From the NCBI GenBank assembly GCA_964486045.1, contig CAZALK010000001.1, positions 264,142-328,141 of the forward strand: DNA of 64,000 bases, written 5' to 3'. Source of the DNA: an uncultured archaeon. Lineage in GTDB: Archaea > Asgardarchaeota > Lokiarchaeia > Sigyniarchaeales > SOKP01. The position numbers and the translations under genes are program-made. The notes under the pieces were generated by a model. It was given only the letters and a program-made list of their open reading frames with translations, had not been told where the DNA came from and did no database searches. Positions within the stretch are counted from its first letter, which is position 1. The number at the start of each line of letters is the position of its first letter. This document shows, piece by piece, positions 57,145-60,426 of the stretch.

Positions 57145-57832
57145 TTAATGCTCTAAAGCAGCAAATATCTCCTTACCCTTTTCAATACCCAAATTAAGGG
57201 CTTTAATGTTCAAATCTGGGTCTCTCAACCATTCTTTGATAACTTCTTCATAATGATGGATTTCAATAAAAGGTAATTTTCCAGTTATTATTGCGAAACC
57301 TAACATGATGAGATTAACTTGTTTATTGGAATTAAAATTGTTTAATGATAATTGAGTAGCTTTCATAAAAAAAACTTGATCGCTATAACCATTTAAAATT
57401 TCCTTTATTTTTTCTAAGGGGGGATATTTTTCCAAATCCGCTGTAACTAATATGTTTGGGATATCTCGTTCATTTATCACAAAACTTGTCTTTTTTGATG
57501 CAAAGATTCCTCGTCTTAAAGTTTCGACGGGTTCAAAGCATATATATAGATCACCATCACCATAACTGATAAGGGGAGAATGCAGATTTTTTCTTTCATC
57601 ATTATAAATTTTTTGTTGATATCGTGTATGACTCATAATAGCTCCTTCTCGCTGAGCAAGTCCGTGCATCAAACGCTTAAACTCGAATTGAGTTGTAAGA
57701 TTCGCTTCCAAAGACTCGCTCAACATCAGCTTTTTGAGCTGCAAATTCTATCAATCTTTTTAGAGTTATTACACCCTGACCAGCAGTACCAGCTATAACA
57801 ATATTAATAATGTCTGTTTCCTCAAATTTCAC
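57145..57832 (-). CDS. iorB: Indolepyruvate:ferredoxin oxidoreductase beta subunit, two exons (57832-57701 + 57669-57145), 218 aa if spliced
   Basis: GTG start behind a GAGGTG SD; IAGTAGQGVIT...VFGSE joined to MHGLAQREGA by removing 31 nt. Confidence 0.88.
57670..57700 (-). other. Candidate 31-nt bulge-helix-bulge intron in iorB mRNA
   Basis: Central helix AGCG/CGUU; 3-nt bulges AAU and UGA; inner stems CUUA/UAAG and AACUC/GAGUU; cuts AA|U and UG|A restore GAA-AUG. Confidence 0.75.
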
Positions 57833-59765
57833 GAAAAGGCACCTCTTGTCCGAAGACATTTATAATTGACTTTCTAATTGCCCTATTTGGGCATATTTCG
57901 TAACAAACCCCACATTTTATACAACGATCTTGATCTATTTGCATTTCTTCAATTCCTTCGGTGTTAACTCTCCTTATTGCAGGGCAACTCAGAATCCTAC
58001 TGCATTCATGACACATTGAACAGCCTCCAATATAATAAGAGATGTCTTGAACTCTTTCACCATCATCTTGAAGAGATTTAATTTGAGACATTCTCCACCT
58101 ATGAGCTTGCAATCCGCATTCTCTCTTTATGATGATAACTTTTAACCCTTTAGTTTTAAGTGCTTCTTCTATAGTCTTGGTTAGTTTTTTAGGGTGATAT
58201 GAATCTTCAACTTTAAGCCAAGGTACTCCAATAGCTCTACAAATTTTTTCAATTGAAAATCCTCGATTTATTAAGTATCGAAGAACATCATCTTGATGCC
58301 CCGTCATCGCTGTCCATGAGTTTTCAAATATAACAAGTAATAAATTTGAGTTGTACCCTACTGCTTCAGCCAACGGTGCCATCCCAGTATGGAAGAAAGT
58401 AGAATCACCGATAAATGCTATAACCTTTTGATCTGTTTTTGTTGACATTCCAATAGCTGCGCTTATGCCTCCAGACATGCATATCACTAAATCCGAACAT
58501 TGCTGGGGAGGAAAAAATGACATTACATAACAACCTATATCACCACAGATTACAGTATTTGCTAAGTTATTTGTAGCCTTTAAAATTGAGTATAATGTAG
58601 CTCTTTCTGGGCAACCTGCGCAAAAAGTTGGGAATCGACTCGGGATAATCTCCTTATATGAATTGAAATACTCAACAGCCTTAGTCATTTGCTCATTTGG
58701 CTTTTTACCAAATATTTGTGCCAAGCAAGAAGCAACTAAACCTGTAGAAAATTCATTATGTTTAGGAAAAAACTTTTGTCCTAAAATTTCAACATTAATT
58801 CTCTGATTATGAGCAATTTCAGCGATTTTAACTTCCAAGAATGGCTCTAATTCTTCAATTATGATTACTTTTTCTAAATTTTGGATATAATCAGAGATCT
58901 GCTTATAATTCAATGGATAAATCATTCCAAGCTTTAATACTGGAACACTATTTAATTCTAATTGATTAAGCGCTTCCATCGTATATCCAAATGGCATTCC
59001 ACTTGTTATAACTCCTATTTTGTTATCACCAATAATGATCTTATTAAATCCTAAGTTTGGTGAATCCACTCGAAGTTTTTCTATCCGTTCATACAATCTA
59101 ATATGATTATTGATTGCATGAGGGGGTAGTGAGTTGAATTTAGGAATATCTCTAATAAATTCACCGCTTTTTTTACCAGGTACTAACGGTCCTAACTCAA
59201 CAAAACCTCGTGAATGAGCACTTCTTGTTGAAGTACGAATATTTATGATTAAATCAAATTTTTCTGAAAGTTCAAAAGCAATTTTAACCCAATCTTTACA
59301 TTCTTGAGGTGTATGAGGTTCTATAGTAGGAATATGAAGCATCCACGCATAAAATCGTTCATTCTGTTCTTGATGTGAACCCAAAGAACCAGGATCAGAG
59401 CCAACTGAAACTACCATGCCTCCAGGATTCGGTCCATTTAATGCAATTACACTCAATGCATCACTTGCAACATTCAAACCTACATGTTTCATAGGATTAA
59501 AAGTTCTACATCCTGTCCAAGCTGCTCCTGCACAAGAAGAAGTTGCAACAGCCTCGTTAACAGCCCAATGATGGACTAAAAAATCACTATACTCAGGAAA
59601 ATCTCTAATTACTTGATGGAAATATTCCCCAATATCGCTTGTTGGAGTCCCAGGATATTGAGAAACGTATGAAACTCCCGCTTCTAGGCATCCTCTAACA
59701 AGTGCTTCATTACCAAGCAATAAAACCTTACCTTTAGCTCTCGTGAAGCGAGTATCTTTTATCAT
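57822..59765 (-). CDS. iorA: Indolepyruvate:ferredoxin oxidoreductase alpha subunit
   Basis: LLGNEA, YPGTP, MKHVGLNVA, FCAGCP, GDIGCY, GDSTFFHTG, AMTGHQ, C-terminal ferredoxin. Confidence 0.96.
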   Translation of the reverse strand: MIKDTRFTRAKGKVLLLGNEALVRGCLEAGVSYVSQYPGTPTSDIGEYFHQVIRDFPEYSDFLVHHWAVNEAVATSSCAGAAWTGCRTFNPMKHVGLNVASDALSVIALNGPNPGGMVVSVGSDPGSLGSHQEQNERFYAWMLHIPTIEPHTPQECKDWVKIAFELSEKFDLIINIRTSTRSAHSRGFVELGPLVPGKKSGEFIRDIPKFNSLPPHAINNHIRLYERIEKLRVDSPNLGFNKIIIGDNKIGVITSGMPFGYTMEALNQLELNSVPVLKLGMIYPLNYKQISDYIQNLEKVIIIEELEPFLEVKIAEIAHNQRINVEILGQKFFPKHNEFSTGLVASCLAQIFGKKPNEQMTKAVEYFNSYKEIIPSRFPTFCAGCPERATLYSILKATNNLANTVICGDIGCYVMSFFPPQQCSDLVICMSGGISAAIGMSTKTDQKVIAFIGDSTFFHTGMAPLAEAVGYNSNLLLVIFENSWTAMTGHQDDVLRYLINRGFSIEKICRAIGVPWLKVEDSYHPKKLTKTIEEALKTKGLKVIIIKRECGLQAHRWRMSQIKSLQDDGERVQDISYYIGGCSMCHECSRILSCPAIRRVNTEGIEEMQIDQDRCIKCGVCYEICPNRAIRKSIINVFGQEVPFREI

Positions 59766-59883: not shown

Positions 59884-60426
59884 CTAACCATTTTTTTCTA
59901 TAATTTCCTTCGCAATATATTCGAAAATATCCTCTACATTATCTCCTGTTTTAGAAGAACATTCAAAATATCCTTTCAACCCAAAAGTTCTAGATAATTC
60001 CTCTGCTTCTTCAGAGGGTATAGATCTTTTTTCTTCAAGATCAATTTTACTTCCTACCATAATAATAGGTATCTTAACCTCATCTTCAGATATAAAATAT
60101 TCGAAAATTGACAACCAATCTCTAATTTGACCAAGGCTAGAATAACGGGTTGTATCATACATAAATATACCACCATCAGCCCCTTTTGCAAAAGCGGGTA
60201 GAAGAACTCGAAAACGATCTTCTCCCGCAAAATCCCATATTCGAAGCGTTATTTTTCTGCCGTCTAAGTCAATATTTTTAACACTAAAATCAGCCCCTAT
60301 TGTCATTTTAATATCTTTCTGGAAAACTCCTGTAGAAAATCTCCTGATCAATGTAGTTTTACCTACTCCACCATCACCAAAGATGCAAATCTTGAAAGCA
60401 ACTTTTTGTACTATCCTTATCACCAA
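59884..60426 (-). CDS. Rab-like small GTPase with intact motifs
   Basis: GDGGVGKTT, TIGADF, WDFAGE, GSKID, ECSSK. Confidence 0.95.
   Translation of the reverse strand: MVIRIVQKVAFKICIFGDGGVGKTTLIRRFSTGVFQKDIKMTIGADFSVKNIDLDGRKITLRIWDFAGEDRFRVLLPAFAKGADGGIFMYDTTRYSSLGQIRDWLSIFEYFISEDEVKIPIIMVGSKIDLEEKRSIPSEEAEELSRTFGLKGYFECSSKTGDNVEDIFEYIAKEIIEKNG

What the first reader, a model, noticed from the sequence alone, without database searches (positions are those of the whole stretch)
57670..57700. Candidate tRNA-type (bulge-helix-bulge) intron in a metabolic mRNA (iorB)
Seen: the conserved SE-x-HG-x-AQR motif is split by exactly 31 nt, which shifts the frame and contains a stop. The mRNA reads GGA AGCG AA|U CUUA C AACUC AAUUC GAGUU UAAG CGUU UG|A UGCAC: a 4-bp central helix (AGCG/CGUU) with a 3-nt bulge on each strand and a paired intron stem. 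The outer helix is imperfect. Known: archaeal splicing endonuclease cuts after the second nucleotide of each bulge, and that rule gives exactly GAA-AUG (GSE-MHG). Short BHB mRNA introns are best known from crenarchaeal cbf5. Inference: a spliced intron rather than a pseudogenising frameshift. Both exons and the partner iorA are otherwise intact.
Basis: partly seen in the sequence, partly recalled or inferred. Interest (0 to 1): 0.88.

Follow-up and report, generated by a model that had tools for sequence, protein, structure and literature searches.

The report
tRNA-type mini-intron splitting Asgard iorB
A 31-base insert that breaks an oxidoreductase gene (iorB) of a Loki-type Asgard archaeon has the exact shape, cut sites and evolutionary conservation of an intron removed by the tRNA-splicing enzyme, a way of splicing protein-coding messages that the papers I could search confirm only for one crenarchaeal gene (cbf5); RNA-level proof is still missing here.

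Summary
On the minus strand, 31 nt (57700-57670) interrupt an IorB-like gene between GSE and MHG. Removing exactly these bases gives a protein that aligns without a gap to intron-less homologues.

The RNA folds as a full hBHBh' motif:
- a 4-bp central helix (AGCG/CGUU);
- 3-nt bulges AA|U and UG|A;
- a 9-bp inner hairpin;

Ten distinct alleles from different Promethearchaeia genomes carry a 30-31 nt insert at the same site, and so does the published Lokiarchaeum GC14_75. The insert sequences differ, but compensatory changes keep the fold: 91% of cells pair and 10 pairs changed on both sides. Both exons are under strong purifying selection.

The genome encodes alpha and beta EndA subunits and RtcB. 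In the same genome I verified inserts of the same type in single-copy uS10 and, by a structure-blind comparison with a relative, in four other genes.

No RNA data could be obtained, so excision itself is inferred. This scan has reported the same class in other Asgard genomes. Verdict: very probably a spliced BHB mRNA intron, a new member of a known kind.

The parts
57822..59765 (-). iorA-like gene (647 aa), intact partner subunit directly upstream of iorB on the coding strand
   Evidence: ORF. Pfam POR_N, TPP_enzyme_C and Fer4. Best NCBIfam match is TIGR03336 IOR_alpha at 544 bits, below the 650.9-bit cut-off.
57701..57859 (-). iorB exon 1. The ATG is at 57859; the likely true start is GTG at 57832, where homologues begin. 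It encodes ...AGTAGQGVITLKRLIEFAAQKADVERVFGSE
   Evidence: residues 10-53 align to residues 1-44 of an intron-less homologue (84% identity, no gap). Among intron-bearing alleles pN is 0.077 and pS 0.58.
57670..57700 (-). 31-nt BHB intron. It shifts the frame by +1, and the exon-1 frame meets a TAA inside it.
   Evidence: A 30-31 nt insert lies at the same site in 9 other distinct alleles and in Lokiarchaeum GC14_75.
57145..57669 (-). iorB exon 2 (174 aa plus stop), starting MHGLAQREG
   Evidence: Pfam POR profile positions 29-173 of 173. NCBIfam IOR_beta positions 36-188 of 189. Aligns to residues 45-215 of an intron-less homologue.
57703..57706 (-). central helix, 5' strand (AGCG, exon 1)
   Evidence: Pairs with 57675-57672. 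The middle pair C-G changes to U-A in 8 of 10 alleles, on both sides at once.
57672..57675 (-). central helix, 3' strand (CGUU, intron)
57700..57702 (-). bulge 1 (AA|U). The predicted 5' cut lies between 57701 and 57700.
   Evidence: The bulge is AA|N in all 10 alleles.
57669..57671 (-). bulge 2 (UG|A). The predicted 3' cut lies between 57670 and 57669.
57676..57699 (-). inner intron hairpin (4 bp, a bulged C, 5 bp, and a 5-nt loop)
   Evidence: In one search, 7 of its 9 pairs show changes on both sides across alleles and 93% of cells pair.
57707..57722 (-). outer exon-exon helix, 5' arm (exon 1)
   Evidence: 14 of 16 positions pair with 57668-57653. The U-A pair changes to C-G in 4 alleles.
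57653..57668 (-). outer exon-exon helix, 3' arm (exon 2)
   Evidence: Intron-bearing alleles pair at 11-14 of 16 positions, intron-less alleles at 6-12.

Best explanation
The 31 nt at 57700-57670 are a bulge-helix-bulge (tRNA-type) intron in the pre-mRNA of an IorB-like 2-oxoacid:ferredoxin oxidoreductase subunit of a Promethearchaeia (Loki-type Asgard) archaeon.

Proposed mechanism:
1. The transcript folds so that the end of exon 1 and the start of exon 2 pair with each other (outer helix).
2. Four exon-1 bases pair with four bases near the 3' end of the intron (central helix).
3. The rest of the intron forms a hairpin, which leaves two 3-nt bulges on opposite strands.
4. The heteromeric (alpha-beta) splicing endonuclease EndA cuts after the second base of each bulge.
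5. RtcB joins the exons to give ...GGA AGC GAA|AUG CAC GGA..., which encodes ...VFGSE|MHGLAQR....
6. The 31-nt intron is released, probably as a circle.

Shown here: the motif, its exact register, its conservation by compensatory change, intact and selected exons, and the presence of the enzymes. Inferred: cleavage and ligation in the cell.

The intron need not have a function of its own. It is most simply a tolerated element of a genome-wide population of such inserts.
For: - Geometry and register. H is 4/4, both bulges are 3 nt, the inner stem has 9 bp and the outer helix pairs at 14 of 16 positions. Only one register restores the protein, and it is the register the BHB rule predicts. Exon 1 matches residues 1-44 and exon 2 residues 45-215 of intron-less P0004, with no gap or overlap.
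- Cut rule. It was calibrated on this genome's canonical tRNA-Ser(GGA) intron, where it gives the 37/38 junction.
- Chance. The motif at one fixed pair of positions occurs at 1.1e-4, or 1.9e-7 with the long outer helix.
- Conservation. Ten distinct alleles carry a 30-31 nt insert at the same site. On the hBHBh' structure 91.1% of cells pair, against 18-47% when partners are slid. Ten pairs changed on both sides, and 0 of 500 shuffles reach the observed score. One compensation is a synonymous Ser codon change (AGC to AGU) matched by CG to CA in the intron.
- In-frame inserts. The three 30-nt inserts all carry stop codons, so the sequence is never readable straight through.
- Selection. Exon 1 has pN 0.077 against pS 0.58, and exon 2 has 0.15 against 0.72, among intron-bearing alleles.
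- Spread. About 33 of 120 database homologues are annotated as truncated proteins starting at M-HG. These include Lokiarchaeum GC14_75, whose contig has the 31-nt insert.
- Machinery. A catalytic EndA paralogue, a His-less paralogue and RtcB are present. Asgard (alpha-beta)2 EndA with the L1 loop is the broad-specificity type (PMC5829648).
- Same genome, uS10. The single-copy uS10 gene carries a 31-nt insert with a perfect hBHBh' motif. Its predicted product matches the continuous uS10 of same-genus genomes (29 loci fetched, 14 read), and its exon 2 has no start codon.
- Same genome, structure-blind test. A comparison with 400 kb of a relative found 30-nt stop-containing inserts in four more genes. 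Each fits the BHB geometry in one orthology-compatible register.
Against: - No RNA evidence exists for this locus.
- The central helix is weakened in 3 of 10 alleles: 3/4 pairs in L007 and 2/4 in L005 and L034.
- In the window's own sequence the minimum-energy fold is a different pairing of the central region, 2.3 kcal/mol better than the BHB conformer. The BHB conformer is the minimum in only 2 of 10 alleles, and RNAalifold leaves the central helix unpaired.
- Exon 2 begins with AUG in every intron-bearing allele, so separate translation of the C-terminal part cannot be formally excluded for this gene.
- The alleles are related, so the number of independent compensatory events is smaller than the number of cells counted. 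The protein tree within the genus is unresolved.
Confidence: 0.88

Rival explanations
1. Split gene. The insert is a spacer, and the two parts are made as separate polypeptides: a peptide of about 50 aa carrying the GTAGQG loop, and a 174-aa protein started at the AUG that opens exon 2, perhaps by termination-reinitiation. The two then assemble non-covalently.
For: Exon 2 starts with ATG in all 10 intron-bearing alleles. The exon-1 frame stops 0-8 codons into the insert, close to that ATG. Gene callers annotate the locus this way, for example as 51-aa and 171-aa ORFs in Lokiarchaeum GC14_75. Both parts are under purifying selection, which this model also predicts.
Against: Met at this position is also the commonest residue in intron-less alleles (GSEMHG), so the ATG is probably ancestral. 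No Shine-Dalgarno-like motif is conserved in the inserts. The model does not explain the compensatory maintenance of a 4-bp helix flanked by two 3-nt bulges, an outer helix that buries the AUG, or the fixed 30-31 nt length. Inserts of the same type in uS10, the EF-2-like gene, cdhA and a small GTPase are followed by exons without start codons. The break falls inside the most conserved motif of the family.
Confidence: 0.06
2. BHB processing site without rejoining. EndA cuts the transcript but the exons are not ligated, or are ligated only under some conditions. The element would then down-regulate or switch IOR expression rather than act as a constitutive intron.
For: EndA also cuts BHB motifs that are not classical introns, such as rRNA processing stems and the 5' UTR of Haloferax HVO_1309 (PMC7714728). 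Nothing here measures ligation.
Against: Exon 1 is kept under strong purifying selection in the correct frame, and the excision register exactly restores the protein. That is unnecessary if the exons are never joined. RtcB is present.
Confidence: 0.03
3. Pseudogene or assembly artefact. The insert simply inactivates iorB, or it is an error of this assembly.
For: Read literally, the gene is frameshifted and stopped.
Against: The insert recurs at the same site in at least 10 independent assemblies and in dozens of metagenomic contigs. Neither exon has any further lesion. Synonymous divergence is near saturation while pN stays at 0.08-0.15. iorA is intact.
Confidence: 0.02
4. Programmed ribosomal bypass (hop) over the 31 nt, as in phage T4 gene 60.
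For: A stop codon and a hairpin follow the last sense codon, as in gene 60.
Against: Bypass needs matching take-off and landing codons. The take-off codon is GAA in all alleles, but the triplet before the AUG is UUG, UUC, AUA, UCU, UUA or AAC and never GAA or GAG. The exon-exon helix and the bulge geometry have no role in a hop.
Confidence: 0.01

Closest known systems
BHB intron in the cbf5 (pseudouridine synthase) pre-mRNA of Crenarchaeota (Watanabe 2002; Yokobori 2009, PMC2738675)
   Same: A short intron inside a protein-coding sequence, bounded by a bulge-helix-bulge motif. The host has a hetero-oligomeric, broad-specificity splicing endonuclease. The intron is patchily present or absent among related species, so gain and loss occur. 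Genome annotation mistakes the gene for a frameshift or a truncated gene.
   Different: The gene is different (an IOR-family metabolic enzyme, not cbf5), and so is the phylum (Promethearchaeota/Asgard, not Thermoproteota). Splicing is not yet shown experimentally here. In this genome it is one of several such introns rather than a single case. As of 2020, cbf5 was described as the only coding-sequence example (PMC7714728).
Archaeal pre-tRNA BHB introns (canonical 37/38 and non-canonical positions), cut by EndA and joined by RtcB
   Same: The motif and the cut rule are identical. I checked this on the genome's own tRNA-Ser(GGA): anticodon stem, UUGG/CCAG central helix, bulges AG|C and AA|A. The size is within the tRNA-intron range.
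   Different: The exons are coding sequence. The outer helix is therefore built from codons (ERVFGSE and MHGLA) and has to co-evolve with the protein, and no tRNA body is present to help recognition.
BHB intron in the 5' UTR of Haloferax volcanii HVO_1309 mRNA (PMC7714728)
   Same: An mRNA substrate of the archaeal splicing endonuclease.
   Different: It lies in an untranslated region, so no reading frame depends on it. Its host is a euryarchaeon with a homodimeric (alpha'2) enzyme.
IRE1/RtcB unconventional splicing of XBP1/HAC1 mRNA in eukaryotes
   Same: A small frame-shifting intron (26 nt in XBP1) is removed from a cytoplasmic mRNA by a protein endonuclease and the tRNA ligase RtcB, without a spliceosome.
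   Different: The endonuclease is IRE1, not a tRNA splicing endonuclease. It recognises twin stem-loops, not a BHB, and the splicing is stress-regulated. No regulation is shown here.

Membership tests
Archaeal bulge-helix-bulge (EndA-type) intron | Two 3-nt bulges on opposite strands, each 3' of its strand of a 4-bp central helix | tested here: met
   Window: AGCG/CGUU with AA|U and UG|A. The central helix is 4/4 in 7 of 10 distinct alleles, 3/4 in one and 2/4 in two.
Archaeal bulge-helix-bulge (EndA-type) intron | Flanking helices: an outer exon-exon helix h and an inner intron helix h' (strict hBHBh' form) | tested here: met
   The outer helix pairs at 14 of 16 positions and the inner helix has 9 bp. 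Across alleles 90.7% and 93.3% of cells pair.
Archaeal bulge-helix-bulge (EndA-type) intron | Cutting after the second nucleotide of each bulge yields the functional mature RNA | tested here: met
   The junction GSE|MHG aligns without a gap to intron-less homologues. The rule reproduces the 37/38 junction of the genome's tRNA-Ser(GGA).
Archaeal bulge-helix-bulge (EndA-type) intron | The structure is maintained by compensatory substitutions among homologous introns | tested here: met
   Ten pairs changed on both sides, the covariation score is 0.365 against 0.18 in shuffles (0 of 500 reach it), and slid controls score 0.147 or less.
Archaeal bulge-helix-bulge (EndA-type) intron | The host encodes the splicing endonuclease and the RtcB ligase | tested here: met
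   Two EndA paralogues are present: a catalytic alpha and a His-less beta-like one. RtcB scores 557 bits.
Archaeal bulge-helix-bulge (EndA-type) intron | The intron is actually excised and the exons ligated in vivo (spliced RNA, free or circular intron) | not testable with these tools
   No RNA run was listed. The junction scan of metagenome contigs found only an intron-less genomic allele.
Archaeal bulge-helix-bulge (EndA-type) intron | Cleavage by purified EndA in vitro at the predicted bonds | not testable with these tools
   This needs a bench experiment.
Indolepyruvate:ferredoxin oxidoreductase beta subunit (IorB) | POR (gamma-type) domain, an adjacent IorA-like alpha subunit, and scores above the NCBIfam equivalog cut-offs | tested here: inconclusive
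   Pfam POR 50 bits, above its cut-off, for exon 2 alone. IOR_beta models are the best NCBIfam hits (73-74 bits) but fall far below their cut-offs (205-238), partly because exon 1 is missing from the query. The neighbour's best hit is IOR_alpha at 544 bits, against a 650.9 cut-off. I therefore call it IorB-like; substrate specificity is not established.
Programmed translational bypass (T4 gene 60 type) | Identical take-off and landing codons flanking the skipped segment | tested here: not met
   The take-off codon is GAA. The triplet before the resumption codon is never GAA or GAG in any of the 10 alleles.

The most novel reading that the evidence does not exclude
The iorB intron may be one visible member of a genome-wide, evolutionarily dynamic population of 30-32 nt endonuclease-spliced introns in protein-coding genes of Loki-type Asgard archaea. 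A 400-kb ortholog sample gave 5 introns in about 400 genes, which extrapolates to roughly 50 or more per genome. These introns are gained and lost on species time-scales: the uS10 intron appears only in this species among the same-genus genomes compared. They also force coding sequences to co-evolve with RNA structure. If so, the closest archaeal relatives of eukaryotes already run routine, spliceosome-independent mRNA splicing. That implies some separation in time between transcription, splicing and translation, and it allows splicing to act as a gate on expression.
Probability: 0.55. Interest if true: 0.88.

Novelty: new member of a known kind. Interest (0 to 1): 0.72.

Why it matters
- In the literature I could search, BHB splicing inside a coding sequence is confirmed only for crenarchaeal cbf5, and a 2020 paper (PMC7714728) still says so. 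No paper found links it to Asgard archaea.
- This case is in a metabolic enzyme of the lineage closest to eukaryotes. It is supported by many diverged alleles, and it is already present, but misannotated as a truncated IorB plus a 51-aa ORF, in the published Lokiarchaeum GC14_75 genome.
- It shows that gene callers systematically truncate or split such genes in Asgard genomes. It also gives a clean substrate for testing mRNA splicing by EndA and RtcB.
- With the uS10 and other cases in the same genome, it bears on how a prokaryote with coupled transcription and translation copes with introns. That question is directly relevant to models of eukaryogenesis.

Tried and rejected
- RNA evidence. 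The look-up of sequencing runs (kind rna) listed no RNA holder, so read laying could not be used.
- Spliced-junction scan. An exact-pattern scan of metagenome contigs gave one hit, an 8.8-kb genomic contig with an intron-less allele, not a transcript.
- Near-identical pairs. I looked in the protein database for a truncated and a full-length protein that might be genomic and cDNA forms of one allele. The closest pair is only 96.5% identical, and all members of ten truncated clusters are truncated.
- Census by structure plus ORF. Several stringencies, with and without requiring AA in bulge 1, showed no excess at L=30-32 over other lengths. Gene junctions and AT-rich background dominate, and gapless helix counting misses real introns: uS10 and, at one threshold, iorB itself. 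I therefore draw no conclusion from these scans. They did pick out the AIRS-like candidate.
- Sequence similarity. The iorB and uS10 introns have no similar copies elsewhere in the genome.
- Protein tree. The tree meant to count gains and losses is unresolved within the genus. A single origin is neither shown nor excluded.
- Other first-reader leads. Pfam searches of the genome for the split dodecin and histone genes found no dodecin and only four intact histones, so those leads remain unchecked.
- ARAGORN. Its intron calls are too imprecise for a general calibration; only tRNA-Ser(GGA) was clean.

Full report
**The observation**

The gene lies on the minus strand. Exon 1 (57859..57701) ends ...VFGSE, then come 31 nt (57700..57670), and exon 2 (57669..57145) starts MHGLAQREG. 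Read literally, exon 1 runs eight codons into the insert to a TAA, and exon 2 is in another frame.

Exon 2 matches Pfam POR profile positions 29-173 of 173 and NCBIfam IOR_beta positions 36-188 of 189, so the first part of the domain is missing from it. Exon 1 residues 10-53 align to residues 1-44 of an intron-less homologue (P0004, 215 aa). Exon 2 residues 1-171 align to its residues 45-215, with no gap and no overlap. Removing exactly these 31 nt therefore restores the family's architecture.

The upstream gene (57822..59765) is an intact IorA-like subunit. Both subunits score below NCBIfam's equivalog cut-offs, so "IorB-like" is the safe name.

**The fold**

- central helix AGCG (57706-57703) with CGUU (57675-57672);
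- bulges AA|U (57702-57700) and UG|A (57671-57669);
- an inner hairpin of 4 bp, a bulged C, 5 bp and a 5-nt loop.

The outer helix is much better than "imperfect". 14 of 16 positions of 57722-57707 pair with 57668-57653, nine of them consecutively. The topology is the correct one for EndA substrates, with each bulge 3' of its strand of the central helix.

I checked the cut rule on the genome's own tRNA-Ser(GGA). It has the anticodon stem CUGGC/GCCAG, central helix UUGG/CCAG and bulges AG|C and AA|A. Cutting after the second bulge base gives the canonical 37/38 junction.

Chance estimates come from all positions of this genome at L=31. The fraction with a 4/4 central helix, 4/4 inner pairs and at least 3/4 outer pairs is 1.1e-4. 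With the long outer helix as well it is 1.9e-7. Only one excision register restores the protein.

Thermodynamically, the BHB conformer is 2.3 kcal/mol above the minimum in the window's sequence. It is the minimum itself in 2 of 10 alleles, and 0.3-4.4 kcal/mol above the minimum in the other eight. RNAalifold predicts the outer and inner helices and leaves the central part open. This is usual for a motif that a protein reads.

**Comparative evidence**

The genome is a 5.18-Mb Promethearchaeia (Loki-type Asgard) assembly. I searched 61 relatives, then the whole genus (54 genomes), then the species-representative contigs. This gave 10 distinct alleles with a 30- or 31-nt insert at exactly the same site, and 31 alleles without one, many of them in the same genus. 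The intron-less alleles read GSEMHG or GSE-x-HG, with no gap.

The insert sequences are very different from one another. The three 30-nt inserts are in frame but carry stop codons.

On a 70-column alignment I counted pairs for the hBHBh' structure:
- 91.1% of cells form pairs, against 18-47% when the 3' partners are slid by 1-3 columns;
- 10 of 27 pairs changed on both sides;
- none of 500 shuffles reached the observed values.

Examples of compensation:
- In the central helix, a synonymous Ser codon change (AGC to AGU) is matched by CG to CA in the intron.
- In the outer helix, a Val-to-Ala codon change in exon 1 is matched by a synonymous GGA-to-GGG change in exon 2.

Intron-bearing alleles pair at 11-14 of 16 outer positions and intron-less alleles at 6-12. 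The coding sequence therefore seems adapted to the helix.

Caveats:
- The central helix has only 3/4 pairs in one allele and 2/4 in two.
- The alleles are related, so the number of independent events is lower than the cell counts suggest.
- The protein tree is unresolved within the genus.

**Not a pseudogene**

Among intron-bearing alleles, exon 1 has pN 0.077 against pS 0.58, and exon 2 has 0.15 against 0.72. Neither exon carries any other lesion.

In the 5.8-billion-protein collection, about 33 of the best 120 homologues are annotated as truncated proteins starting at M-HG. All members of ten such clusters are truncated as well. One is the IorB of Lokiarchaeum GC14_75. Its contig has the iorA gene, a 51-aa ORF, a 31-nt insert with the same AGCG/CGUU helix, and a 171-aa ORF.

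**Machinery and context**

The genome encodes two EndA paralogues. One has the catalytic Tyr, His and Lys context. The other lacks the His and matches the structural half of fused enzymes. This is the (alpha-beta)2 arrangement reported for Asgard and TACK archaea with the specificity-broadening L1 loop (PMC5829648). RtcB is present. ARAGORN finds only 31 tRNAs, 20 of them with intron calls, in line with heavily interrupted Asgard tRNA genes (bioRxiv 10.64898/2026.10.13.758758).

Earlier notes of this scan listed other candidates in the same genome. I tested them independently in two ways.

First, uS10:
- It is found once in the genome, and only its C-terminal 76 codons are open.
- Upstream lies a 31-nt insert with a perfect motif: UCUGUG/CACAGG, UGCA/UGCG, AA|A and AC|U.
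- The predicted product ...IESVCK|SQGIRKNGPIPLP matches the continuous uS10 of same-genus relatives. All 29 same-genus loci fetched have open frames of 102-119 aa, and the 14 I read at the junction are continuous. None of them has the insert.
- Exon 2 has no start codon.

An essential single-copy gene interrupted this way argues strongly that the organism splices such inserts from mRNA.

Second, a structure-blind comparison. I ran ORFs from 400 kb of a same-genus genome against this genome with tblastn, looking only for extra, stop-containing segments. Among about 400 orthologues this found:
- 30-nt inserts in an EF-2-like GTPase, a zinc-ribbon protein, cdhA and a small GTPase;
- a 32-nt extra segment, also in cdhA.

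For each of the four 30-nt inserts, one of the orthology-compatible registers shows a 3/4 or 4/4 central helix with 3-nt bulges and a strong inner stem.

A crude BHB-plus-ORF scan also picked a 30-nt insert with an in-frame TGA and a perfect motif in an AIRS-like gene.

**What is missing**

No RNA run was listed. The junction scan of metagenome contigs found only an intron-less genomic allele. Excision and ligation are therefore inferred.

The main surviving rival for this gene is separate translation of exon 2 from its AUG. Several points argue against it:
- Met is also the commonest residue at that position in intron-less alleles.
- No Shine-Dalgarno-like motif is conserved in the inserts.
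- The model leaves the BHB geometry, the outer helix that buries the AUG, and the fixed length unexplained.
- The other introns of the genome precede exons without start codons.

Ribosomal bypass fails the matching-codon test. A pseudogene or an artefact is excluded by conservation and selection.

**Comparison with what is known**

The mechanism is that of archaeal tRNA introns, and the closest precedent is the cbf5 pre-mRNA intron of Crenarchaeota (PMC2738675). In 2009 no other gene had been confirmed. In 2020 cbf5 was still called the only coding example, besides a 5'-UTR intron in Haloferax (PMC7714728). My searches found no paper on Asgard mRNA BHB introns.

This scan has reported the same class in other Asgard genomes, some with RNA support according to those notes. 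I did not test those claims. I file this finding as a new member of a known kind, with high confidence in the structure and its conservation, and with splicing inferred.

Noticed in passing
G000:C9, locus L059 1479-1509 (+): The single-copy ribosomal protein uS10 gene is interrupted by a 31-nt insert with a perfect hBHBh' motif (UCUGUG/CACAGG, UGCA/UGCG, AA|A, AC|U). The predicted product matches the continuous uS10 of same-genus genomes: 29 loci have open frames of 102-119 aa and the 14 read at the junction are continuous. None carries the insert, so it looks like a recent gain in this species.
   Followed up: yes
G000:C13:92018-92047 (+): A 30-nt insert with three in-frame stops splits the G1 motif (ITAH|IDHGKTT) of an EF-2-like GTPase. 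The central helix GCGC/GCGU is 4/4 and the inner stem 7/8, but there is no outer helix (relaxed form). The insert is absent from the orthologue in relative G006.
   Followed up: partly
G000:C22:24748-24777 (-) and about 24549-24580 (-): cdhA (CODH/ACS alpha) carries a 30-nt insert with a stop codon (central helix 3/4, outer 6/8, inner 8/8). About 200 nt downstream it has a second extra segment of about 32 nt relative to G006. I did not resolve the register of the second one.
   Followed up: partly
G000:C1:29542-29571 (+) and G000:C21:17229-17258 (+): There are 30-nt stop-containing inserts just before the P-loop of a small Ras-like GTPase (GAUC/GAUC helix) and in a zinc-ribbon protein (GCAU/GUGU helix, inner stem 8/8). 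Both are absent from G006. In the 400-kb sample this makes 5 such inserts in about 400 orthologues.
   Followed up: partly
G000:C5:195271-195300, locus L098 972-1001 (+): An AIR-synthase-related (PurM/HypE-like) gene has two same-frame ORFs separated by a TGA inside a 30-nt segment with a perfect hBHBh' motif (GUUUUC/GAGAGC, ACGU/GCGU, AA|A, AU|C). Exon 2 starts at AIRS profile position 43. I did not check it against relatives, and a selenocysteine reading is not formally excluded.
   Followed up: partly
locus L092 1338-2016 (Lokiarchaeum GC14_75, JYIM01000104.1): The published GC14_75 assembly annotates this gene as a 51-aa hypothetical ORF plus a 171-aa IorB. The 31-nt intron lies at L092 1471-1501. 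About a quarter of database homologues are truncated in the same way, so annotation pipelines systematically miss these introns.
   Followed up: yes
window 57707-57722 and homologous codons in relatives: Intron-bearing alleles encode R-V/A-F-G-S-E where most intron-less alleles encode R-N-F-G-S-E. The Val or Ala codons supply pairs of the exon-exon helix. A few intron-less alleles (L012, L052, L054, L093) keep Val or Ala and may be recent intron losses.
   Followed up: partly
window 59884-60426 (-): A Ras/Rab-like small GTPase (GDGGVGKTT...) lies next to the ior operon. This is typical of Asgard genomes, and I used it only as a first hint to the lineage.
   Followed up: no
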